Below are positions 1 through 10,884 of a stretch of 21,027 nt of DNA, in pieces. The DNA comes from a virus. Taxonomy: Duplodnaviria; Heunggongvirae; Uroviricota; Caudoviricetes. How positions within the stretch are numbered: position 1 is the first letter of the stretch; every line of letters begins with the position of its first letter. Position numbers and translations under genes: made by a program. The notes beneath the pieces were generated by a model. That model was not told the origin of the DNA and did not search any database. It saw only the letters and a list, made by a program, of their open reading frames with translations. The stretch is from the IMG/VR virus record IMGVR_UViG_2690316152_000009. One strand, written 5' to 3'.

Positions 1-1002
1 TTACCCTCTATTGTCAAAAGGGTTCAATTCAACAGCAGCCTCTAAATGACCTGGAGCAAAATGCGCATAACGCATAGTCATTTTTATATCGCTATGCCCC
101 AGTATTTTTTGCAACACAAGAATATTTCCGCCCCGCATCATAAAATGACTGGCAAACGTGTGACGTAGCACATGAGTTAATTGCCCATCAGGAAGCTCGA
201 TCTTCGCTCTCTTAATTGCAGCGTCAAAAGCCTCATAACATGGTGAAAATAGCGCTCCTCGTTTTTTAGGAAGCATAGCCTGCAATTGAGGTGAAATCGG
301 TACAGTGCGGTTCTTCTTTCCTTTAGTTTTAACAAATGTGATTCGACCGGGCAGTACTTGAGATTGCTTTAATCCTTCTGCTTCACTCCACCGAGCACCC
401 GTCGCAAGCCCAATACGGACAACAACCCCCAAATCTTTATTCCGTGACTCATCACACGCAATCAGAAGGCGTTCAATCTCATCTACATACAGAAACGCCA
501 GTTCCTTTTCTTCCTCACGAAACTTGCGAATACCAGTCAGGGGGTTTTCACCAGACCACTCCCCAAGGCGCTTCAGTTCGGCAAAAACAGCATGTAGATA
601 TGACTGCTCGCGATTAACGGTTGCTTCACTAAGTTTTTTCTTCCCCTTGGGATTCCATTCTCCTGATAGCCTTCTTTCCCGATAAGTAGCAAACATATTT
701 TTGTCAAACTGAGAAGCAAATGGATCTCCCAGCCTGGAACAAATCGCCTCAAGTTTGACTTTGCGCTCTGCACCAGAGGACAAGGTTTTACCGTACATCT
801 CAAACCAACGAGCAATCAACTCAGAAAGACGAGGACCAGAACCATCTTGAAACTCGTCTCCAACTCTACTATTCATTAAACGGCGCTCATAAGAGAGCGC
901 CTCACTTTTTGTCGCAAACTGTTTACGAATGCGTTTTCCCGATGCCCCGTAGGGATAACATTCGCAAAGCCATTTACCTGATGGAATCTTACGAACCGAC
1001 AT
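1..1002 (-). CDS. int: P2-type tyrosine integrase
   Basis: 333-aa ORF; tyrosine-recombinase C-terminal motifs (HVLRHTFASHFMM, LGHSDIKMTMRYAHFAP) and P2 Int-like N-terminus (GKRIRKQF, FVKTKGKKNRTVPIS) recognised from memory of P2 Int; position at prophage end matches the P2 map. Confidence 0.9.
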   Translation of the reverse strand: MSVRKIPSGKWLCECYPYGASGKRIRKQFATKSEALSYERRLMNSRVGDEFQDGSGPRLSELIARWFEMYGKTLSSGAERKVKLEAICSRLGDPFASQFDKNMFATYRERRLSGEWNPKGKKKLSEATVNREQSYLHAVFAELKRLGEWSGENPLTGIRKFREEEKELAFLYVDEIERLLIACDESRNKDLGVVVRIGLATGARWSEAEGLKQSQVLPGRITFVKTKGKKNRTVPISPQLQAMLPKKRGALFSPCYEAFDAAIKRAKIELPDGQLTHVLRHTFASHFMMRGGNILVLQKILGHSDIKMTMRYAHFAPGHLEAAVELNPFDNRG

Positions 1003-1007
1003 TTTAG

Positions 1008-1355
1008 TTACTTATCACATAAATCAAATGCAGCCTTAGTGACATCCCCCAGACTCTTTTTTAACCCTGGGGCGGCATCATTATCTAGCCAAAATGGATT
1101 ATTGTTATCTAACGGTAACGCACCAAATGTTTTACCTTTTATTCGAGCCAAACCTGTAAGTGCATATAACTTATTATCGTCAAAATTCATCACATAAGGA
1201 TTACCATCAAGACACTGTAATTGAACCTCATCAGTATTAAATGGCCATACCCCATTGAAACTCTCACGTTCAATAGTTTTAAAAGGCATTGCGACGGCGG
1301 AAAAAGAAAACATAGATAAAAAAGTAACTAATAGTTGAACCTTTTTTACTTTCAT
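1008..1355 (-). CDS. Secreted (periplasmic) protein of unknown function, cargo between C-like repressor and int
   Basis: 115-aa ORF; N-terminal Sec-type signal peptide (MKVKKVQLLVTFLSMFSFSAVA, AxA cleavage site); two Cys in mature part; GAGG SD before ATG; no Cys lipobox. Confidence 0.6.
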   Translation of the reverse strand: MKVKKVQLLVTFLSMFSFSAVAMPFKTIERESFNGVWPFNTDEVQLQCLDGNPYVMNFDDNKLYALTGLARIKGKTFGALPLDNNNPFWLDNDAAPGLKKSLGDVTKAAFDLCDK

Positions 1356-1384
1356 ATCATTACCTCAATTTAGCTCAAGTAAGA

Positions 1385-2035
1385 TTACAAATTAAAAAAT
1401 GCCCTAGAAATGACACCACCTACCAAAACCCCTACGCAGATAAAGAATATTATTTCTTTTGGATAAAGTCGGATTAATTCTGAAGCACGAAGTCGGACTT
1501 CTGGTAAGGTCGAACTCTCTGTGTGGCTTGATGCCGATTGTTGCTCTAACCACGACAATGCAGACTGTAACTGAGAACGAGTAAGATCGTTTAAACGTCC
1601 TGTACCGAAATTGATATGGCAATACCGCAGAAGTTTTTGTCGAAGTCCACAGTCTTCACTGTTACGTAGTAATAAACTTACAAGAGCCTTACAGGCATCA
1701 TGATCTTTACATCGCTCAAGCATTGCATGCAGAAAACTCTCCGCTGTTTTATATTGATTTACTGTCATATCATCAATACCAGTTACACCAATCTCCGCAT
1801 GTACTTTTTGCCAAATAATAAACGCTTCAGTATTGCTAGCTTCTGCAATAGCAGCAACCAAGCTATTTAGCTCCTTACGCTGAGCCTTAAGCAAAGGGCG
1901 ATCGTCATCATCATTATTCGAAGGGATTGCGATATTGACGGTCTGAGAACCATCATATCGCTCTATCTGAATATTCTTTTCGTGAAAATCACGCCCAGCA
2001 ACGCGATTGTTTGAACCGTTTGAGTTGACGGCCAT
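1385..2035 (-). CDS. C-terminally membrane-anchored (tail-anchored) protein of unknown function
   Basis: 216-aa ORF; GGGAGG SD 6 nt upstream; single hydrophobic segment at extreme C-terminus (EIIFFICVGVLVGGVISRAFFNL); N-terminus carries NNRVAGRDFHE motif shared with C-terminus of upstream repressor. Confidence 0.6.
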   Translation of the reverse strand: MAVNSNGSNNRVAGRDFHEKNIQIERYDGSQTVNIAIPSNNDDDDRPLLKAQRKELNSLVAAIAEASNTEAFIIWQKVHAEIGVTGIDDMTVNQYKTAESFLHAMLERCKDHDACKALVSLLLRNSEDCGLRQKLLRYCHINFGTGRLNDLTRSQLQSALSWLEQQSASSHTESSTLPEVRLRASELIRLYPKEIIFFICVGVLVGGVISRAFFNL

Positions 2036-2050
2036 GTCACCTCCCTACTA

Positions 2051-2455
2051 TCACCTACCCTTAGTTTCGTTATAGTCACGACCAGCGATACGGTTATTAC
2101 CACCAGAAATATTTAACTCACGTCCTGATGGCTGAGTTTCCTTTTCACTGATCGCACCTTTTAAAGCCCCAATCACCGCATTTTTCACATCTAACGAAGC
2201 TGCTCGAAAGCGAGTAATCAACTCCTGCTCATCATCGTTATAAGTTTCAGGTGAGTGAATTCCCAACACAACATACTGAACATCAAGGCCAAAACGAGAC
2301 AGCGCTGCCAAATACGCAGCATCAGGAAAGCTATCTCCTTTCTCATATCTAAGCTGAGTTAGCTTTTTGACTCCACCAATGTCGCTCATGGCAACTTGAC
2401 TAAGTCCCAATCTTTCCCTTTCCTCACGCAACCGCTGACCAATATCATTTTTCAT
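2051..2455 (-). CDS. HTH (XRE-family) transcriptional repressor, putative immunity repressor (P2 C / 186 CI positional analogue)
   Basis: 134-aa ORF; N-terminal HTH (LREERERLGLSQVAMSDIGGVKKLTQLRYEKGDSFP); first gene leftward of divergent switch region, as P2 C. Confidence 0.75.
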   Translation of the reverse strand: MKNDIGQRLREERERLGLSQVAMSDIGGVKKLTQLRYEKGDSFPDAAYLAALSRFGLDVQYVVLGIHSPETYNDDEQELITRFRAASLDVKNAVIGALKGAISEKETQPSGRELNISGGNNRIAGRDYNETKGR

Positions 2456-2530
2456 ACAAAAACCTTGACAGGTATCTTTTTTGATACCAAAATGATTTCA
2501 CGAGCTATTAGATGATCACAATATACCACT
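2456..2530. promoter_or_regulatory. Divergent lysis/lysogeny switch region with perfect inverted repeat GGTATC-N6-GATACC (2471-2488) overlapping a candidate rightward promoter (-35 TTGACA 2465-2470, weak -10 CAAAAT 2488-2493)
   Basis: 75-bp intergenic region between divergent repressor gene and early operon; palindrome and -35 hexamer read directly; -10 assignment weak. Confidence 0.4.
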
Positions 2531-2737
2531 ATGAAACAAGTTCTTCACGATACCAGATCACGCATTCCGCGTAACACCGCCACAGGTCCAAGACTGGCAC
2601 TTCGGCTGTCCCTCGAGGAGCGAGCCGTCATTGATGAAATGGCAGCTAAAGAACAACGCTCATCCTCTAACATGGCGCGCATGATCTTCCTTCGCGGCCT
2701 AGAGCTAACCCAGAAAGAACAAAACAAATCTTCCTGA
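2531..2737 (+). CDS. Small putative ribbon-helix-helix DNA-binding protein (first early gene)
   Basis: 68-aa ORF; RLALRLSLEERAVIDEMAAKEQRSSSNMARMIFLRGLE resembles RHH (Arc/CopG/MobC-like) pattern; no obvious SD, start uncertain. Confidence 0.45.
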   Translation: MKQVLHDTRSRIPRNTATGPRLALRLSLEERAVIDEMAAKEQRSSSNMARMIFLRGLELTQKEQNKSS

Positions 2738-2753
2738 TCAGGAGGCTAGTGGG

Positions 2754-2957
2754 ATGTCAGGTATAACCATCAATATCAATGTGAATGCCCCCTATGTATC
2801 CCTGCAGAAATATGCAGAGATAACAGGTATCCCTCTTAATACATGCAAAAAGATGTTGGCTGACGGTCGAATTATTATCCGACCCAAACGCGCCAAAATG
2901 GAAAAGCCTGAAGTAAACCTTGTGGCGATGTTAAAAGACGCTTTGGCTAACAGCTAA
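2754..2957 (+). CDS. Cox/Apl/AlpA-like HTH excisionase-regulator
   Basis: 67-aa ORF with GGAGG-like SD (caggaggctagtggg ATG); HTH segment VSLQKYAEITGIPLNTCKKMLADGRI typical of AlpA/Cox/Xis-type proteins; position matches P2 cox / 186 apl. Confidence 0.6.
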   Translation: MSGITININVNAPYVSLQKYAEITGIPLNTCKKMLADGRIIIRPKRAKMEKPEVNLVAMLKDALANS

Positions 2958-2978
2958 AACAATGAACAGAGCACCATC

Positions 2979-3329
2979 ATGAAAAAAAACGCTAATAATC
3001 CATACTCCAAATTTCGTAATGGCGTAGAACGCCATGTACACCACGTCGCTACCAGTGCATCACGTAGTAACAGTCGCTATAACCTGAACGAGACGCACGC
3101 AACACCGGATGGCCACGCTGTAAAACAAATCGGCGAGCATGCCTGGCTGATTGAGAAAGCTGGAATCGTGGTCCACAAATGCCCACGCAATCCGTTTACC
3201 GGAAACCGCATTTTTGCATTGAACTGCGGCGACAATCACTTCGGGCAGGATTTCACATTATACGAAGCACTTCGCACGGTTGATCGTCTGCTTCGCGGGC
3301 AAAGTTTTATTAAACAGGCTGATTTATAA
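2979..3329 (+). CDS. Hypothetical early-region protein
   Basis: 116-aa ORF in early operon, co-oriented; no recognisable motif. Confidence 0.5.
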   Translation: MKKNANNPYSKFRNGVERHVHHVATSASRSNSRYNLNETHATPDGHAVKQIGEHAWLIEKAGIVVHKCPRNPFTGNRIFALNCGDNHFGQDFTLYEALRTVDRLLRGQSFIKQADL

Positions 3330-3339
3330 CAGGTGCTTT

Positions 3340-3618
3340 ATGACCAAAGAGCATGCACAAGGTGTATTTATCCGTTTTATTGATTTTCGCGGTGAACTGT
3401 TATTACGCGCATCAGCCATTGACGGAGTTGTTCCATCCGAAAAAAACGCAGCTACTTACGTTTATCTGAACGGTACGCGCCTGACTGTGGAGCTTCCGTA
3501 CCAGACCGTACGAGAAATCATTAGCGAAGCTGAAAAGGCACGTCAGGTTAATGGCGATGAACCCTATATCGAAATTATTTGTATGGATTCAGAAGCTGAA
3601 ATTCAGAAAGCAGATTAA
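3340..3618 (+). CDS. Hypothetical early-region protein
   Basis: ORF track frame 3280..3618; ATG at 3340 preceded by AGGTG SD is the more plausible start (about 92 aa). Confidence 0.5.
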   Translation: MTKEHAQGVFIRFIDFRGELLLRASAIDGVVPSEKNAATYVYLNGTRLTVELPYQTVREIISEAEKARQVNGDEPYIEIICMDSEAEIQKAD

Positions 3619-7926: not shown

Positions 7927-8328
7927 ATGAAAATTTGTATCGATGACGGCTCCACCAACATCAAGCTGGCATGGACTGAGAACGGCGAACGCCGCAACGC
8001 CATCAGCCCGAACAGCTTCAAGTCGGAATGGTCTGCGCCGTTCGGTGGCACGCAGCCCGCGAACTACATGCTTGATGGCGTGCGCTATGGTTTTGATCCG
8101 GTCAGCGATCGCTTTGTCCAGACAACTGACACGCAATACCAGTACAGCGATGTGAATGTCATTGCCATTCATCACGCGCTGGTCAAATCAGGCATCACGC
8201 CACAGGAGGTGGATGTGGTTGTCACCCTGCCACTGAGCGAGTATTTCGACACAAACGCACAGCCGGACATAGCCAACATCAACCGCAAAAAAAGCCCAGG
8301 ATTCCCGGGGCGGTTCAGAGGAGAGTGA
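7927..8328 (+). pseudogene. ParM/StbA-like actin-family partition ATPase, N-terminal fragment only
   Basis: MKICIDDGSTNIKLAW...ISPNSFK...YSDVNVIAIHHALVKSGI resembles the N-terminal about 125 aa of plasmid ParM/StbA (about 320 aa); reading frame runs into a 22-bp IS terminal repeat and stops. Confidence 0.6.
8296..8317. repeat. Solo 22-bp copy of the IS629-like terminal inverted repeat
   Basis: CCAGGATTCCCGGGGCGGTTCA is identical to 20461-20482 (terminus of the partial IS element); no IS body adjacent. Confidence 0.6.
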
Positions 8329-8330
8329 GA

Positions 8331-8822
8331 ATGCAAATTTCACCGGTTACTCTTCGTGTTGCGAAGGCGTTTATATCCAGACATCACCGACACAATAAAC
8401 CCCCGGTGGGGCATAAATTCAGCATTGGTCTGAGAAATGATGCCGGAGAATTGATAGGTGTGGCGACAGCCGGTAGACCTGTTGCACGACATTTGGACGA
8501 TGGATTAACGCTTGAAGTAAATCGCACATGTACCACAGGAGAACGCAACGCTAACAGCGCACTTTATGGTGCTGTCTGGCGGGCAGCAAAGGCTATGGGT
8601 TATCAACGTTGTATTACGTACACCCAGGCAGATGAATCAGGAGCATCTCTCCGCGCAGCTGGTTTTGTTCGTGTGAAAGAGCTTCCTCCAAGAAAAAGCT
8701 GGGCGGAATCAAGCGTCGCCCTGCGGAGTAAACGCGATCCGGTCGGAAACGGTGGTGTTCCTCGTGTGCTCTGGGAAATCAGGAGAATGAGTACCACTGG
8801 CATTCGCATCAAAGGAGAGTGA
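8331..8822 (+). CDS. Hotspot cargo protein, 163 aa, possibly GNAT-fold (acetyltransferase-like)
   Basis: ATG 8331 preceded by GGAGAG SD; weak by-eye match to GNAT core (segment TTGERNANSALYGAVWRAAKAMGYQRCITYT then LRAAGFVRV); stop TGA lies inside the SD of the next gene. Confidence 0.55.
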   Translation: MQISPVTLRVAKAFISRHHRHNKPPVGHKFSIGLRNDAGELIGVATAGRPVARHLDDGLTLEVNRTCTTGERNANSALYGAVWRAAKAMGYQRCITYTQADESGASLRAAGFVRVKELPPRKSWAESSVALRSKRDPVGNGGVPRVLWEIRRMSTTGIRIKGE

Positions 8823-9091
8823 TATGGCAACTTTGACAAAAAAAGAACAAGCATGGTTGAGCGAATTACAGGACGTTCTTGATCGCTGCCCATCACCGAA
8901 AAAAATTGGTTTTTACACCATTGGCGATAAAAGCATTTACCTGTATGACCTGCGCCGCATGGATGAAATCATGGAGGCTCTTGATAATCGTTCGTCAATG
9001 GATTGGTGTGTTGCTGTCCATGATATGAATGCAGGGTTTGATGAAAAGATTTTGTTCCCCTCATCAGTTGAAAGCACAGCAGGATAAGGAC
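8811..9091 (+). repeat. Direct repeat copy 1 (281 bp) carrying the coupling junction and the whole 87-aa gene
   Basis: Identical to 9497-9777 except one synonymous C/T difference (8889 vs 9575). Confidence 0.9.
8824..9087 (+). CDS. Hotspot cargo protein, 87 aa (copy 1)
   Basis: ATG 2 nt after upstream TGA, SD AAAGGAGAG; MATLTKKEQAWLSELQDVLDRCPSPKK...; no recognised family. Confidence 0.6.
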   Translation: MATLTKKEQAWLSELQDVLDRCPSPKKIGFYTIGDKSIYLYDLRRMDEIMEALDNRSSMDWCVAVHDMNAGFDEKILFPSSVESTAG

Positions 9092-9097
9092 TAACAC

Positions 9098-9508
9098 ATG
9101 ACCACTATTACCAAAGAACGTATTGAATTGTTCATTAAAAATCCGCTTGAAAACGGGCTTACTCGTGACGAACAAATGGAACTGGCACGAATTGCACTGG
9201 CATCGCTGGAAGCAGAGGCAGTTATGTTCTGTATATCAGGACAAAATGTAGATTCAGAAGAACATGTATCAACCAGCAAAGCGGTTGTTGATGCCTGGGT
9301 TGAAGAATGGAATCAGGTTGACGGAAGTCCTGGCGAACCACTGTACAAAACTATGCCACTCTACTATCACGCTGCCTTGCCAGCGCCGGTAGTGCCGGAT
9401 GAAATGTATTGGCAGGATGCGCCAGTTGAAGGCAGCAGCAAAGCGGCTGCATACGCTACAGGCTGGAACGCCTGCCGCGCCGCTATGCTTCATGGGAAAG
9501 GAGAGTGA
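9098..9508 (+). CDS. Hotspot cargo protein, 136 aa, acidic
   Basis: ORF between the two repeat copies; its last codons (KGE-stop) lie in repeat copy 2; no recognised family. Confidence 0.6.
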   Translation: MTTITKERIELFIKNPLENGLTRDEQMELARIALASLEAEAVMFCISGQNVDSEEHVSTSKAVVDAWVEEWNQVDGSPGEPLYKTMPLYYHAALPAPVVPDEMYWQDAPVEGSSKAAAYATGWNACRAAMLHGKGE

Positions 9509-9777
9509 TATGGCAACTTTGACAAAAAAAGAACAAGCATGGTTGAGCGAATTACAGGACGTTCTTGATCGCTGTCCATCACCGAAAAAAATTGGTTTTT
9601 ACACCATTGGCGATAAAAGCATTTACCTGTATGACCTGCGCCGCATGGATGAAATCATGGAGGCTCTTGATAATCGTTCGTCAATGGATTGGTGTGTTGC
9701 TGTCCATGATATGAATGCAGGGTTTGATGAAAAGATTTTGTTCCCCTCATCAGTTGAAAGCACAGCAGGATAAGGAC
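9497..9777 (+). repeat. Direct repeat copy 2 (281 bp)
   Basis: See copy 1; offset 686 bp. Confidence 0.9.
9510..9773 (+). CDS. Hotspot cargo protein, 87 aa (copy 2, identical protein)
   Basis: Identical translation to 8824..9087; the ORF-track ORF 9399..9773 is the same frame read from an upstream in-frame start. Confidence 0.6.
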   Translation: MATLTKKEQAWLSELQDVLDRCPSPKKIGFYTIGDKSIYLYDLRRMDEIMEALDNRSSMDWCVAVHDMNAGFDEKILFPSSVESTAG

Positions 9778-9807
9778 CCAGCAAATATACACAACCTATA
9801 AAACACT

Positions 9808-9834
9808 AAAGCGCCTCAGGGGCGCTTTTTGTTT
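9808..9834 (+). terminator. Rho-independent terminator closing the cargo cassette
   Basis: GC-rich hairpin AGCGCC-tcagg-GGCGCT (9810-9826) followed by TTTTTGTTT. Confidence 0.7.
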
Positions 9835-10359
9835 GCACAAAAGTGCACAAATTTGCACAATTTTTTTGAACGACTTTTTACCCTTCCGGCCCGCATGGCG
9901 GCTGGATCCGTCAAGGATCCGTGCGTGCACAAAAAAACGCGCTTTTTCTGCGCGCAGGTGACGGGGGAACAGCCCGCGTTTCAGGGGGTAAATAGCATTC
10001 CCTGAACGATGTCGCAGAGACACAACAGAATGGCCATATTTCTCACGCTGAGCATGAAAAAGGCGTGAGGGCTTTTGATTTGATGGGGTGAAAGGTAAGG
10101 CCGTCAAAATCGCACTGAGGCAGCGAGAACATACAGTCAACGCGGTGGAATTGCGTAAGAGTCTGACCGTCGATGGTGGCGATAAACTGGAAGGCGTCGT
10201 GAAATTATCTGATTGATACAGGAGCTGGAGAGCCGGGGCATAAATTTTTTATGCCCCGGCGAAGCAGCAGACAAGCGAAGCGCGTCAGCGATACGGCACC
10301 TTGCCGACCATACTTCATAAGTGCAAAATACGAGCAAAGAAATCAATGGAGGCTGTCTT
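9835..10359. other. About 0.5-kb non-coding region, candidate cos/packaging and regulatory region
   Basis: No credible ORF; lies where P2 cos sits (between hotspot and Q); TGCACAA x3 at 10-bp phasing (9834-9860), GGATCCGT x2 (9904-9922), perfect 13-bp-stem palindrome (10232-10260); cos sequence itself not identified. Confidence 0.3.
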
Positions 10360-10884
10360 ATGGTCATTAATTACAAGCAGTTAAGAGAAAAACGGGAGCA
10401 GGTAAAGGAGAGCTTTCGCCGCAATGAAGATCTGACCCCGCTTGTACGCCTTGCCCAGGGCATTGTTGATGCTTATGAAATCTCGCTGGAGCTGCCATCA
10501 CAGACCTGGACAGATAGCGACGGTAATCGCCAGCATTACGTTTCATGCGGACTGGAAGCAGCCGAAGGATTTCGCAGAATGCCTTTATCCCAGATCCCTG
10601 CCGCTACCCCCAAAGCATGGGGCAGCAATGATGAGCGAAAACTGACTTTTAGTATTGAAACGGTGGTTGACGACACACCTGGCGAAGTCGCGTTCGTACA
10701 CACTCCTGTTTCGATCGCAATGTATAACGATGAAATACAGGTTCGCGTTAATAATAATATCGTGCCACTTAAAGAAGGTAATTCACCCTACACCACCGTT
10801 TGTGAAGCCATTCAATATTACGTTCTCTCTGAAATTGATAATCTCAAGCCTGACGGCACCCAGAAAATGGTTCAACTCTGGTAA
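10360..10884 (+). CDS. Stand-alone hotspot ORF, 174 aa, unknown function
   Basis: ATG 10360 with GGAGG SD 7 nt upstream; followed by bidirectional terminator; no recognised motif. Confidence 0.55.
   Translation: MVINYKQLREKREQVKESFRRNEDLTPLVRLAQGIVDAYEISLELPSQTWTDSDGNRQHYVSCGLEAAEGFRRMPLSQIPAATPKAWGSNDERKLTFSIETVVDDTPGEVAFVHTPVSIAMYNDEIQVRVNNNIVPLKEGNSPYTTVCEAIQYYVLSEIDNLKPDGTQKMVQLW

What the first reader, a model, noticed from the sequence alone, without database searches (positions are those of the whole stretch)
1008..2455. Two cargo genes inserted between the immunity repressor and int: membrane-anchored protein plus secreted protein
In P2 the repressor C is followed directly by int. 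Here a 216-aa protein with a single C-terminal membrane anchor and a 115-aa signal-peptide-bearing periplasmic protein lie between them, co-oriented and closely spaced, so they would be transcribed with the repressor in the lysogen. That is the classic position and expression logic of prophage superinfection-exclusion or abortive-infection genes (lambda rexAB beside cI, P22 sieA). I recognise neither protein as a known family.
Basis: partly seen in the sequence, partly recalled or inferred. Interest (0 to 1): 0.7.

Follow-up and report, generated by a model that had tools for sequence, protein, structure and literature searches.

The report
Repressor-matched membrane partner plus periplasmic cargo
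Between the repressor and integrase of this P2-like prophage lie a periplasmic cargo protein and a membrane-anchored protein whose start copies the repressor's tail, a matching peptide pair seen across many temperate phages that suggests a previously undescribed link between the repressor and the cell membrane.

Summary
Two real, co-oriented genes sit between the repressor (2051-2455) and int (1-1002), both under purifying selection.

The reading as "two unrecognisable cargo genes" is only half right.

- **ORF115 (1008-1355)** is a signal-peptide-bearing DUF2511/YebY-family periplasmic protein. It occupies a variable slot where related prophages carry unrelated genes, mostly exported ones. This is the true cargo.
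- **ORF216 (1385-2035)** is a tail-anchored inner-membrane protein with one Flk_N domain (PF27202). It follows this type of repressor in every tail-bearing locus examined, in P2-like and Mu-like prophages of Enterobacterales, Pseudomonas, Burkholderia, Ralstonia and Gilliamella.

The main new result is a shared peptide. The disordered C-terminal tail of the repressor (NISGGNNRIAGRDYNE) is copied at the disordered N-terminus of ORF216 (NSNGSNNRVAGRDFHE). Nine different motif variants were found in different lineages. Each is matched within its own gene pair (permutation z=6.3, 0 of 200,000), and codon usage gives no sign of recent gene conversion. Two repressors that lack the tail also lack the partner gene.

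Best explanation (inferred): the two peptides pair directly, so ORF216 is a membrane-anchored partner or modulator of the repressor. ORF115 would be an envelope-acting lysogenic-conversion or exclusion gene. No function was tested, and neither protein matches a known defence family.

The parts
1..1002 (-). Tyrosine integrase (333 aa), last gene of the lysogenic operon
   Evidence: Pfam Int_N 5e-32 and Phage_integrase 2.5e-22; annotated as phage integrase in EDL933
1008..1355 (-). ORF115: exported periplasmic DUF2511/YebY-family protein, the variable cargo slot
   Evidence: Pfam PF10709 at 28.4 bits (cutoff 21); phrog_2950 at 8.7e-40; PDB 7n0j YebY at E=0.0027 with Trp37, Cys48 and Cys113 aligned; pN 0.20-0.24 vs pS 0.69-0.84; G+C 0.34-0.35
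1287..1355 (-). Signal peptide of ORF115 (residues 1-23, MKVKKVQLLVTFLSMFSFSAVA|M)
   Evidence: Basic n-region, hydrophobic core (KD19 1.66) and AVA cleavage motif, read from the sequence; the YebY family is periplasmic (PMC8689200)
1385..2035 (-). ORF216: tail-anchored inner-membrane protein made of an N-terminal repressor-like peptide, an Flk_N domain and a C-terminal TM
   Evidence: PF27202 Flk_N on the 98%-identical P0001 and on all homologues; NCBIfam Flk 1e-15 over residues 35-166; phrog_5825 at 6e-103; BLASTP to E. coli Flk 28% identity, 1e-10
1391..1462 (-). C-terminal transmembrane anchor of ORF216 (residues ~192-215)
   Evidence: The only hydrophobic segment, KD19 maximum 2.36; AF2 helix 192-215; conserved at the extreme C-terminus in 26 of 26 aligned homologues
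1520..1900 (-). Flk_N helical-bundle domain of ORF216 (residues 46-172), facing the cytoplasm
   Evidence: AF2 pLDDT about 88-93; homology to the first repeat of Flk
1979..2029 (-). N-terminal motif of ORF216 (residues 3-19, VNSNGSNNRVAGRDFHE), a copy of the repressor tail
   Evidence: Smith-Waterman score 62 against the repressor tail, against 13-22 for the partner N-termini of other lineages; nearly invariant in homologues; pLDDT below 50, so predicted disordered
2036..2050 (-). Repressor-ORF216 junction: the repressor stop TGA, then in-frame TAG TAG, then a GGAGG Shine-Dalgarno
   Evidence: The two ORFs are in the same frame but separated by three stop codons
2051..2455 (-). XRE-type HTH immunity repressor (134 aa): HTH, two helices and a disordered tail
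   Evidence: Pfam HTH_31/HTH_3 and PHROG repressor families; AF2 helices up to residue 103, tail 103-134 mostly pLDDT below 50; divergent from the early Arc-like/Cox-like genes
2066..2116 (-). C-terminal tail motif of the repressor (residues 114-130, LNISGGNNRIAGRDYNE)
   Evidence: A relaxed pattern search found the motif only here and at the ORF216 N-terminus in all six frames of the window
2456..2530 (.). Divergent control region between the repressor and the early Arc-like gene (2531-2737)
   Evidence: Promoter-like site on the plus strand at 2465-2493, 10/12; same position as Pe/Pc in P2

Best explanation
The interval is the distal part of the lysogenic operon (repressor to int) of a P2-like (Xuanwuvirus-type) prophage. 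It holds two genes of different status.

**1. ORF216: a dedicated partner of the repressor.** It is a tail-anchored inner-membrane protein. Its cytoplasmic part is one Flk_N helical domain preceded by a disordered peptide that copies the disordered C-terminal tail of the repressor encoded 15 bp upstream.
- Shown: the gene pair and the peptide match are conserved and co-vary across P2-like and Mu-like prophages of several proteobacterial genera.
- Inferred: the two peptides associate directly with each other, in a homotypic, beta-type pairing. Through this, ORF216 tethers, sequesters or otherwise sets the activity of a fraction of the repressor at the membrane. It would then be a membrane-anchored modulator of immunity or induction, whose specificity diversifies as immunity specificities do.

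**2. ORF115: the real cargo.** It is a Sec-exported periplasmic protein with the YebY fold, in the variable last slot before int.
- Inferred: it is a lysogenic-conversion gene acting in the envelope. A likely mode is binding to or inhibiting an inner-membrane or periplasmic component, for example to exclude other phages or toxic peptides.
For: **Family assignments.**

**Conserved pair versus variable slot.** The order HTH, then Flk_N, then a variable gene, then int appears in Klebsiella, E. coli, Rosenbergiella, Mixta, Izhakiella, Enterobacter, Kosakonia, Citrobacter and Serratia. The variable genes belong to unrelated families.

**Shared peptide.** It is present in all enterobacterial loci examined. 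Different but again matched motifs occur in:
- Ralstonia P2-like phage YO077_2
- Burkholderia Mu-like phage KS10 and Pseudomonas Mu-like phages B3 and Ps59
- 18 inspected loci of 30 IMG/VR prophage loci found with a distant Flk_N homologue; 17 show the match and L059, the most divergent, does not
- Pectobacterium, Gilliamella and P. aeruginosa Mu-like prophages
- two metagenomic Mu-like elements

**Statistics.** Nine motif types give a diagonal score sum of 421 against a permutation mean of 221 (sd 31.5). None of 200,000 permutations reached it, and 8 of 9 tails best match their own partner.

**Not gene conversion.** Nucleotide identity within the motif is 53-71%, and only about 40% of identical residues use the same codon.

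**Negative controls.** The two tail-less repressors of the same family, P0335 and P0342, have no motif-bearing or Flk_N gene downstream.

**The motif, not the fold, is the constant.** Partner proteins differ in the rest of their sequence: Flk_N plus TM, Flk_N alone, two-TM proteins, a zinc-ribbon plus TM protein. All keep the matched N-terminal peptide.

**Disorder.** Both peptides lie in segments AF2 predicts as disordered.

**Specificity is set by the phage.** Two P. aeruginosa Mu-like elements carry different motif types (B3 and L068), each self-matched.

**ORF115.** It keeps the conserved Trp37, Cys48 and Cys113 of YebY. E. coli YebY is periplasmic and lowers the activity of the inner-membrane importer YebZ (PMC11923076). 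Its relative MlbQ is proposed to bind a lantibiotic.
Against: - No direct evidence of binding.
- A constitutively co-transcribed antagonist of the repressor needs an extra, unknown signal.
- Some partners lack a membrane anchor: KS10 gp12 and the Ralstonia ORF. Membrane tethering therefore cannot be the universal output.
- The gene after the partner is an exported protein in 23 of 25 type-D loci, and also in KS10, Ps59, loci H and I, and probably B3 (annotated lipoprotein). That fits an envelope-directed exclusion module equally well.
- In one comparison (type G) the repressor tail scores higher with a related type-D partner than with its own.
- Matching peptides could also serve a third, co-evolving phage factor.
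Confidence: 0.5

Rival explanations
1. ORF216 and ORF115 together form a superinfection-exclusion or abortive-infection cassette, one membrane and one periplasmic component. It is expressed from the repressor promoter and acts on incoming phages independently of the repressor. The peptide similarity would be incidental to function.
For: - Position and operon logic.
- A membrane partner followed by an exported protein or lipoprotein recurs: 23 of 25 loci, plus KS10 gp11, B3 ORF22 (annotated lipoprotein) and Ps59 gp19.
- The int-to-primase interval is a minor defence hotspot in P2-like prophages (PMC13586616).
- Some slot-3 alternatives resemble candidate defence proteins: PDC-S48 at 1.4e-8, and a BRCT/WYL-like protein.
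Against: - No PADLOC hit for either protein.
- ORF216 tracks the repressor type, not the third gene. It is kept when slot 3 holds cytoplasmic proteins (BRCT, DUF8087).
- The model does not explain the co-varying peptide match, or the loss of the partner when the repressor has no tail.
- The exported proteins belong to unrelated families, so an obligate two-component machine is unlikely.
Confidence: 0.2
2. Amyloid-like (prion-type) signalling, as in Bab/Agp or NWD2/HET-S. The repressor is the sensor. A change in its oligomeric state, such as binding to incoming homologous DNA or inactivation, would template its tail. The tail would then template the identical N-terminal peptide of one or more membrane proteins and switch them on as exclusion or cell-death effectors.
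For: - The genomic signature used to discover amyloid signalling motifs is present: a roughly 15-30-residue G/N/Q-rich motif at the C-terminus of one protein and the N-terminus of the protein encoded by the adjacent gene.
- Motif families are diverse, and each is self-matched.
- Both copies are predicted disordered in the monomer.
- The Ralstonia and KS10 variants contain a VQIG / ITQVG core close to the G-phi-Q-phi-G signature of RHIM/PP/BASS3.
- Several loci carry two different membrane proteins with the same N-terminal motif.
- The partners are membrane proteins.
Against: - The commonest variant (NRVAGRDFxE) is charged and short, about one beta-arch.
- There is no NLR/STAND or Bell/HeLo-type domain.
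- Flk_N is related to a regulatory protein, not a pore-former.
- Fibril formation was not tested.
- A repressor that aggregates irreversibly would endanger lysogeny.
Confidence: 0.15
3. The shared peptide is a recognition tag for a third factor, such as a protease or adaptor (ClpXP, Lon, FtsH) or a phage antirepressor. ORF216 would compete with the repressor for that factor as a decoy or buffer, without the two peptides touching each other.
For: - Both copies sit in exposed, disordered termini, where degrons usually lie.
- From general knowledge, the C-terminal tail of the Mu repressor controls its ClpXP sensitivity, and many of these elements are Mu-like.
Against: - Nine motif types exist, and two occur within one host species, P. 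aeruginosa. This is hard to reconcile with a conserved host factor.
- No further motif-bearing or obviously co-varying gene was seen in the window.
Confidence: 0.1
4. ORF216 mimics the host protein Flk (Fluke). It would reprogramme the flagellar type III export switch of the lysogen, for example to reduce flagella as a phage receptor or antigen.
For: Homology to the first Flk_N repeat and the same tail-anchored topology. Flk inhibits the export specificity switch (PMC13344023).
Against: - Identity is only 28%, there is one repeat instead of the several in Flk, and the score is far below the NCBIfam equivalog cutoff (57.9 vs 353).
- The family is very common in Klebsiella pneumoniae prophages: P0097 on 754 contigs. 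That species is classically non-flagellate (general knowledge).
- It does not explain the match to the repressor tail.
Confidence: 0.03

Closest known systems
Flk (Fluke/RflH) of Salmonella and E. coli
   Same: Shares the Flk_N helical domain (28% identity over about 120 residues). Shares the topology: a cytoplasmic body held on the inner membrane by a single C-terminal anchor.
   Different: ORF216 has one Flk_N unit, whereas BLASTP shows repeats in the 331-aa Flk. It carries an extra N-terminal peptide that Flk lacks. It is phage-borne, coupled to a repressor gene, and common in non-flagellate Klebsiella. It is a domain-level relative, not an orthologue.
YebY (PDB 7n0j) and MlbQ, the DUF2511 family
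   Same: ORF115 scores above the Pfam threshold. It has a signal peptide and the conserved Trp37, Cys48 and Cys113 that form the YebY disulfide. Hadley et al. had already noted YebY homologues lying between a recombinase and a phage repressor in Enterobacteriaceae.
   Different: It is not in a yobA-yebZ-yebY copper operon and is only distantly related to E. coli YebY (E=0.003). The close homologues found (18 clusters) are few, and all seven loci checked place it in the same prophage slot.
Amyloid signalling gene pairs (E. coli Bab/Agp with BASS11; bacterial Bell/NLR BASS1-10; fungal NWD2/HET-S)
   Same: Adjacent genes whose products share a short terminal motif, at the C-terminus of one and the N-terminus of the other. 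There are many self-matched motif families. The setting is prophage-associated, and one partner is membrane-directed.
   Different: The C-terminal copy sits on a DNA-binding repressor, not on a cell-death effector. There is no NLR, TPR or STAND sensor. The motif is shorter and partly charged. Amyloid formation has not been tested.
ImmR-ImmA-Int module of ICEBs1 and phi105-type elements (from general knowledge, not tested here)
   Same: A gene conserved together with the repressor, lying between the repressor and int in the same operon, which controls repressor activity rather than being cargo.
   Different: ImmA is a soluble metalloprotease. ORF216 has no protease motif or Pfam hit of that kind and is membrane-anchored. 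The proposed recognition is through a matched peptide, not cleavage.
Classical prophage exclusion genes beside the repressor (lambda rexAB, P22 sieA; repressor-int cargo of mycobacteriophages)
   Same: Same position and expression logic in the lysogenic transcript. ORF115 fits this pattern of variable, envelope-directed cargo.
   Different: There is no sequence similarity to any known defence protein. ORF216 is conserved with the repressor rather than variable.

Membership tests
Pfam PF10709 DUF2511 / YebY family (ORF115) | Profile match above the curated gathering score | tested here: met
   28.4 bits against a cutoff of 21, covering profile positions 2-87 of 87. RefSeq annotates the same gene as a DUF2511 domain-containing protein.
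Pfam PF10709 DUF2511 / YebY family (ORF115) | Two strictly conserved cysteines forming the Cys48-Cys113 disulfide, plus the conserved Trp37 | tested here: met
   ORF115 has W37, C48 and C113 at the aligned positions (alignment to 7n0j; residue roles from PMC8689200). Disulfide formation itself was not tested.
Pfam PF10709 DUF2511 / YebY family (ORF115) | Extracytoplasmic location through a signal peptide | tested here: met
   N-terminal MKVKK, a hydrophobic core and an AVA|M site, read from the sequence. No dedicated predictor or experiment was used.
Pfam PF27202 Flk_N domain (ORF216) | Profile match to the Flk N-terminal domain | tested here: met
   PF27202 is precomputed on the 98%-identical P0001 and on all listed homologues with a precomputed Pfam entry (one, P0005, has none). 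NCBIfam PRK10715 aligns residues 35-166 at 1e-15. BLASTP to E. coli Flk gives 1e-10.
Flk (flagella biosynthesis regulator) orthologue, NCBIfam NF007987 equivalog | Full-length match above the equivalog cutoff (353 bits) with the ~330-aa multi-repeat architecture | tested here: not met
   57.9 bits against a cutoff of 353. ORF216 is 216 aa with one repeat, and its context is a prophage rather than the pdxB-flk locus.
Flk (flagella biosynthesis regulator) orthologue, NCBIfam NF007987 equivalog | C-terminal membrane anchor with a cytoplasmic body | tested here: met
   A single C-terminal hydrophobic helix. Flk topology is taken from PMC13344023.
Known anti-phage defence or superinfection-exclusion systems | Sequence similarity to a catalogued defence protein | tested here: not met
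   PADLOC-DB returned 0 families for ORF115 and ORF216 at E up to 1.
Known anti-phage defence or superinfection-exclusion systems | Protection phenotype against other phages when expressed from the prophage | not testable with these tools
Moron (autonomous prophage cargo unit) | Variable presence at a fixed position in otherwise syntenic phages | tested here: met
   Met for ORF115: slot 3 holds at least five unrelated gene families. Not met for ORF216, which is constant wherever the tail-bearing repressor occurs.
Moron (autonomous prophage cargo unit) | Own promoter and terminator | tested here: not met
   No terminator-like site, and no promoter-like site upstream of either gene, in 900-2800. 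This was a consensus scan only.
Amyloid signalling motif pairs (BASS / HET-s-type) | Short motif shared by the C-terminus of one protein and the N-terminus of the protein encoded by the adjacent gene | tested here: met
   Nine self-matched motif types; permutation z=6.3.
Amyloid signalling motif pairs (BASS / HET-s-type) | Association with an NLR/STAND-type sensor and a Bell/HeLo-type membrane-targeting effector | tested here: not met
   The partners are an XRE HTH repressor and Flk_N or other membrane proteins. No NACHT, NB-ARC, TPR or Bell hit was found.
Amyloid signalling motif pairs (BASS / HET-s-type) | Fibril formation and prion-like templating by the motif | not testable with these tools
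   Needs peptide ThT/EM assays and GFP-focus assays. AF2 shows only that the monomeric peptides are predicted disordered.
ImmA-type anti-repressor | Metalloprotease (HEXXH) domain that cleaves the cognate repressor | tested here: not met
   No peptidase family appears among the Pfam, NCBIfam or PHROG hits of ORF216. Only the gene position resembles immA.

The most novel reading that the evidence does not exclude
Many temperate phages of Proteobacteria, both P2-like and Mu-like, would wire their immunity repressor to one or more membrane proteins through a short self-matching terminal peptide, with a private "matched-tail" code for each immunity type. The peptide would work by homotypic beta or amyloid-like pairing. 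The repressor would then be not only a DNA-binding switch but one end of a signalling link between the prophage genetic switch and the cell envelope. The link could report envelope events to the switch, or fire membrane effectors when the repressor changes state.
Probability: 0.3. Interest if true: 0.9.

Novelty: new variant of a known kind. Interest (0 to 1): 0.72.

Why it matters
For non-SOS-inducible P2-like and Mu-like prophages it is largely unknown how the repressor is connected to cell physiology. A conserved, membrane-anchored protein that carries a copy of the repressor's own tail, with pair-specific co-variation, offers a concrete and easily testable candidate for that connection.

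The block is present in about 10% of complete E. coli genomes, including O157:H7, and is frequent in Klebsiella prophages.

If the peptides pair in an amyloid-like way, this would extend amyloid or prion-type signalling from NLR/Abi systems to the core lysogeny switch.

Practically, the work separates a true cargo slot from an immunity-module gene that annotation pipelines label "hypothetical" or "membrane protein". The slot holds ORF115 here and defence-like genes elsewhere, which makes it useful for mining envelope-acting exclusion genes.

Tried and rejected
- **Defence databases.** PADLOC returned nothing for either protein.
- **Solved structures, ORF216.** A sequence search of the PDB found nothing meaningful.
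- **Modelling the complex.** Paired homologues from loci may not be submitted. Only the two monomers were modelled.
- **Recent duplication or gene conversion as the cause of the match.** Rejected on codon evidence.
- **Readthrough fusion of the repressor and ORF216.** Rejected: three consecutive in-frame stops.
- **Flk mimicry of the flagellar switch.** Considered unlikely because of the abundance in Klebsiella and the failure of the equivalog cutoff.
- **Internal promoters or terminators that would make autonomous morons.** Only one weak promoter-like match (9/12, inside ORF115) and no terminator-like site.
- **Link to published transcription data.** In beetrevirus Fc02 the gene downstream of the repressor (e4) is co-transcribed in lysogens (PMC9936078). 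I could not show that e4 belongs to this partner family: tblastn with B3 ORF20 and with the P. aeruginosa partner did not hit Fc02. The published B3-like exclusion genes 9 and 10 lie on the other side of the repressor.
- **Viral-contig scan with the distant homologue P0181.** Found nothing.
- **Literature.** Searches for Flk_N, PF27202 or Flk-like phage proteins found nothing relevant.
Full report
**1. What is there**

On the minus strand the window starts with a lysogenic gene block:
- HTH repressor, 2051-2455 (134 aa)
- ORF216, 1385-2035
- ORF115, 1008-1355
- integrase, 1-1002 (333 aa)

The gaps between them are 15, 29 and 5 bp. Shine-Dalgarno sequences precede ORF216 and ORF115. A consensus scan found no terminator-like site between the repressor and int, and only one weak promoter-like match (9/12, inside ORF115). 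The early genes diverge on the other strand: an Arc-like gene at 2531-2737, a Cox-like gene at 2754-2957, and DUF4761.

The element is a P2-like prophage of the Xuanwuvirus (P88-like) type. It is 97% identical to Escherichia phage 520873 over 1-3400. Over 1003-2460 it is at least 99% identical to 475 complete E. coli genomes, including O157:H7 EDL933. There it is the degraded prophage next to yecA. In P2 itself C is followed directly by int.

**2. Both ORFs are genes, and both belong to described families**

Against orthologues in Klebsiella, Citrobacter, Serratia and Rosenbergiella, non-synonymous divergence is 0.20-0.30. Synonymous sites are at or near saturation, 0.5-0.86.

*ORF115*
- It matches Pfam DUF2511 above threshold and phrog_2950.
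- It matches the solved E. coli protein YebY (7n0j) with Trp37, Cys48 and Cys113 aligned. In YebY the two cysteines form a structural disulfide (PMC8689200).
- It has a standard signal peptide.
- YebY is periplasmic and structurally like the lantibiotic-binding protein MlbQ. It lowers the activity of the inner-membrane copper importer YebZ (PMC11923076).

*ORF216*
- It matches phrog_5825. Its homologues carry Pfam PF27202 Flk_N.
- NCBIfam aligns residues 35-166 to Flk at 1e-15, far below the equivalog cutoff.
- BLASTP to E. coli Flk gives 28% identity over about 120 residues, and shows that Flk itself contains repeats of this unit.
- The AF2 model has a confident helical bundle (residues 46-172), a disordered N-terminus (1-41) and a C-terminal helix (192-215) that is the only hydrophobic segment. 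Like Flk, it is a tail-anchored inner-membrane protein with a cytoplasmic body (PMC13344023).

Neither protein matches PADLOC.

**3. Conserved pair versus variable slot**

Homologues of ORF216 (60-66% identity) were traced to their contigs in Klebsiella, other E. coli lineages, Rosenbergiella, Mixta, Izhakiella, Enterobacter, Kosakonia, Citrobacter and Serratia. In every case the order is HTH repressor, then the Flk_N protein 9-15 bp downstream, then one further gene, then int.

The further gene varies between loci:
- DUF2511: the window, Klebsiella L021-23, Citrobacter L024, Serratia L026, Rosenbergiella L012
- a BRCT plus WYL-like 288-292-aa protein
- a 291-aa protein resembling the candidate defence protein PDC-S48
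- small acidic DUF8087 proteins
- a 244-aa membrane protein

ORF115 also has the lowest G+C of the region, 0.34-0.35. A 2026 census lists the integrase-to-primase interval as a minor defence hotspot of P2-like prophages (PMC13586616).

ORF115 therefore behaves as cargo, and ORF216 does not.

**4. The repressor tail and the ORF216 N-terminus are copies of one peptide**

The repressor ends ...LNISGGNNRIAGRDYNETKGR. ORF216 starts MAVNSNGSNNRVAGRDFHEKN. A relaxed pattern search found the motif only at these two places in all six frames of the window.

Both copies are conserved in all enterobacterial loci examined.

The match is kept at the protein level. Nucleotide identity in the motif is 59%, and across ten pairs only about 40% of identical residues use the same codon. 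Recent duplication or gene conversion is therefore not the cause.

**5. The match generalises and co-varies**

Relatives of the repressor and of the Flk_N protein led to other temperate phages with the same arrangement but different peptides. Each peptide is shared within its own pair.

| Element | Repressor tail | Partner N-terminus |
|---|---|---|
| Ralstonia P2-like YO077_2 | INGGSNNVQIGSV | ITDGNGNVQIGKV |
| Burkholderia Mu-like KS10 | VASGSGITQVGS | SASGFGIIQVAG |
| Pseudomonas Mu-like B3 | VTGDGNRTAGRDFHE | VTGSNNIVAGRDFIE |
| IMG/VR prophages (30 found, 18 inspected) | TFHGSVGQSVAGNVTNKSGVTFNV | DFHGDVGQAAAGDINNYGVSISL |
| Pectobacterium Mu-like | QIFNGDISGQFAGNQIIN | QEFNGTAQGQFSSRDIIN |
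| Gilliamella | VVGQVSSQNIYN | VVGQVAANNIYN |

Ps59 carries the same motif type as B3. In B3, Ps59 and Gilliamella the partner is a membrane protein without Flk_N. Of the 18 inspected IMG/VR loci, 17 show the match. The exception is L059, the most divergent (52% identity to the query). Three further pairs were found: P. aeruginosa and two metagenomic Mu-like elements.

I took one representative of each of the nine motif types and scored every repressor tail against every partner N-terminus:
- The true pairing sums to 421. The permutation mean is 221 (sd 31.5, z=6.3).
- None of 200,000 permutations reached the true value.
- Eight of nine tails, and eight of nine N-termini, score best with their own partner.

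Two members of the same repressor family that lack the tail, P0335 and P0342, have no motif-bearing or Flk_N gene downstream.

Within the repressor family the first ~100 residues are strongly conserved, while the last ~30 switch between motif types. AF2 predicts this tail as disordered, as it does the ORF216 N-terminus.

The rest of the partner protein varies. It can be Flk_N plus TM, Flk_N without TM (KS10, Ralstonia), multi-TM proteins, or a zinc-ribbon plus TM protein. The matched peptide is the constant feature. In some type-D loci a second downstream membrane protein carries the motif too.

**6. How it most likely works**

*Shown:* a gene pair whose products share a private, co-varying, disordered terminal peptide. 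One product is the immunity repressor. The other is usually membrane-embedded.

*Inferred:* the peptides recognise each other directly. A common host factor is unlikely, because two P. aeruginosa elements use different motif types.

The simplest functional reading is that ORF216 is a membrane-anchored partner that binds, tethers or titrates repressor molecules. It would then be a component of the immunity or induction circuit, and its specificity would diversify to avoid cross-talk between co-resident prophages. In gene position it resembles immA in the immR-immA-int operon of ICEBs1 (general knowledge), but it has no protease domain.

The main alternative keeps direct pairing but reverses the output. 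The repressor would be the sensor and the membrane proteins the effectors, as in the Bab/Agp amyloid signalling abortive-infection system found in E. coli prophage hotspots, and as in the Bell/NLR pairs of bacteria. The genomic signature is the same, and the Ralstonia and KS10 variants have a RHIM-like phi-Q-phi-G core. However, there is no NLR or Bell domain, the common variant is short and charged, and fibril formation is untested.

The gene after the partner is an exported protein or lipoprotein in 23 of 25 type-D loci. The same holds in KS10, Ps59 and loci H and I, and probably in B3, where the gene is annotated as a lipoprotein. These exported proteins belong to unrelated families, and some enterobacterial loci carry cytoplasmic proteins in the slot. 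This fits a cargo position that favours envelope-acting genes better than an obligate three-part machine.

**7. Novelty**

Both protein families exist in Pfam. Hadley et al. had noticed YebY homologues between a recombinase and a phage repressor. I found no description of phage Flk_N proteins or of the matched repressor-tail/partner peptide.

I class the finding as a new variant of known kinds: terminal-motif gene pairs, and repressor-partner modules. The function is open.

**8. Limits**

- All functional statements are inferences from sequence and context.
- No complex could be modelled.
- Fold searches gave only weak helical-bundle similarities.
- The nine motif types are not phylogenetically independent in any strict sense, although similarity between two different proteins within a locus is not something shared ancestry of loci produces by itself.
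- Some ORF starts in unannotated loci were chosen by eye.
- Phage 520873, the closest deposited phage, has these genes broken into pieces in its record, probably through assembly frameshifts.

Noticed in passing
window 2036-2053: The repressor and ORF216 are in the same reading frame, separated by three consecutive stop codons (TGA TAG TAG) and then GGAGG. The triple stop excludes readthrough, but the shared frame might be a relic of a former single gene or of a duplication.
   Followed up: partly
window 7927-8822: In the gpA-to-portal interval, the main P2 defence hotspot, there is a 133-aa N-terminal fragment of ParM (StbA_N, 1.8e-63). It is followed directly by a 165-aa ORF with a weak Mom-family match. 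EDL933 has a full-length parM plus a stability gene at this position. The junction looks like a recombination scar. ORFs 7927-10884 gave no PADLOC hits.
   Followed up: partly
L032 3504-3896, L040 3505-3894, L045 3485-3898, L055 3510-3899: Some type-D prophages carry a second small gene (129-137 aa) that also begins with the repressor-matched motif (MEFNGNVGQVAGGDIHNY...). It lies after the lipoprotein gene where one is present, and its C-terminal half (...ILPYFFF...) looks partly hydrophobic. One repressor tail may therefore serve several partners.
   Followed up: partly
L002 6647-7513, L015 4635-5513, L017 4663-5538: Alternatives to DUF2511 in the slot before int include a 288-292-aa protein with an N-terminal BRCT domain and weak WYL similarity (Klebsiella, Enterobacter). 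Kosakonia has a 291-aa protein resembling the PADLOC candidate PDC-S48 (1.4e-8). These are possible uncharacterised defence genes.
   Followed up: partly
L061 3357-4132: P2-like prophages whose repressor lacks the tail carry a different two-gene insert between the repressor and int. It consists of a 117-aa protein with two CxxC pairs and a 140-aa coiled-coil protein with a C-terminal anchor, and neither carries the motif.
   Followed up: no
L070 (EDL933) 18999-39419, versus window 1-2455: In O157:H7 EDL933 the prophage is heavily decayed: IS3 and IS30 insertions, a frameshifted tape-measure gene, a truncated gpD gene, and no head genes annotated in the locus. Yet the int-ORF115-ORF216-repressor block is intact and at least 99% conserved in 475 genomes. 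This fits retention by selection, or simply recent decay.
   Followed up: no
L028 3026-3559 (KS10 gp12), L027 3399-3977: The Flk_N partners in Burkholderia phage KS10 and in Ralstonia phage YO077_2 have no C-terminal membrane anchor. In the Ralstonia phage the partner gene is convergent with the repressor gene rather than downstream of it. Membrane anchoring and co-transcription are therefore frequent but not universal.
   Followed up: partly
window 2531-2957: Two small regulators open the early operon: an Arc-like RHH protein (phrog_3431, 1e-28) followed by a 67-aa protein annotated as Cox-like in phage 520873. P2 has a single cox gene here.
   Followed up: no
L001 (NC_049344) 1039-3065: In the deposited genome of phage 520873 the integrase is split into two CDSs. 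The ORF115 and ORF216 equivalents are unannotated, and each matches by tblastn in three pieces. Frameshift errors in that record are the probable cause.
   Followed up: no
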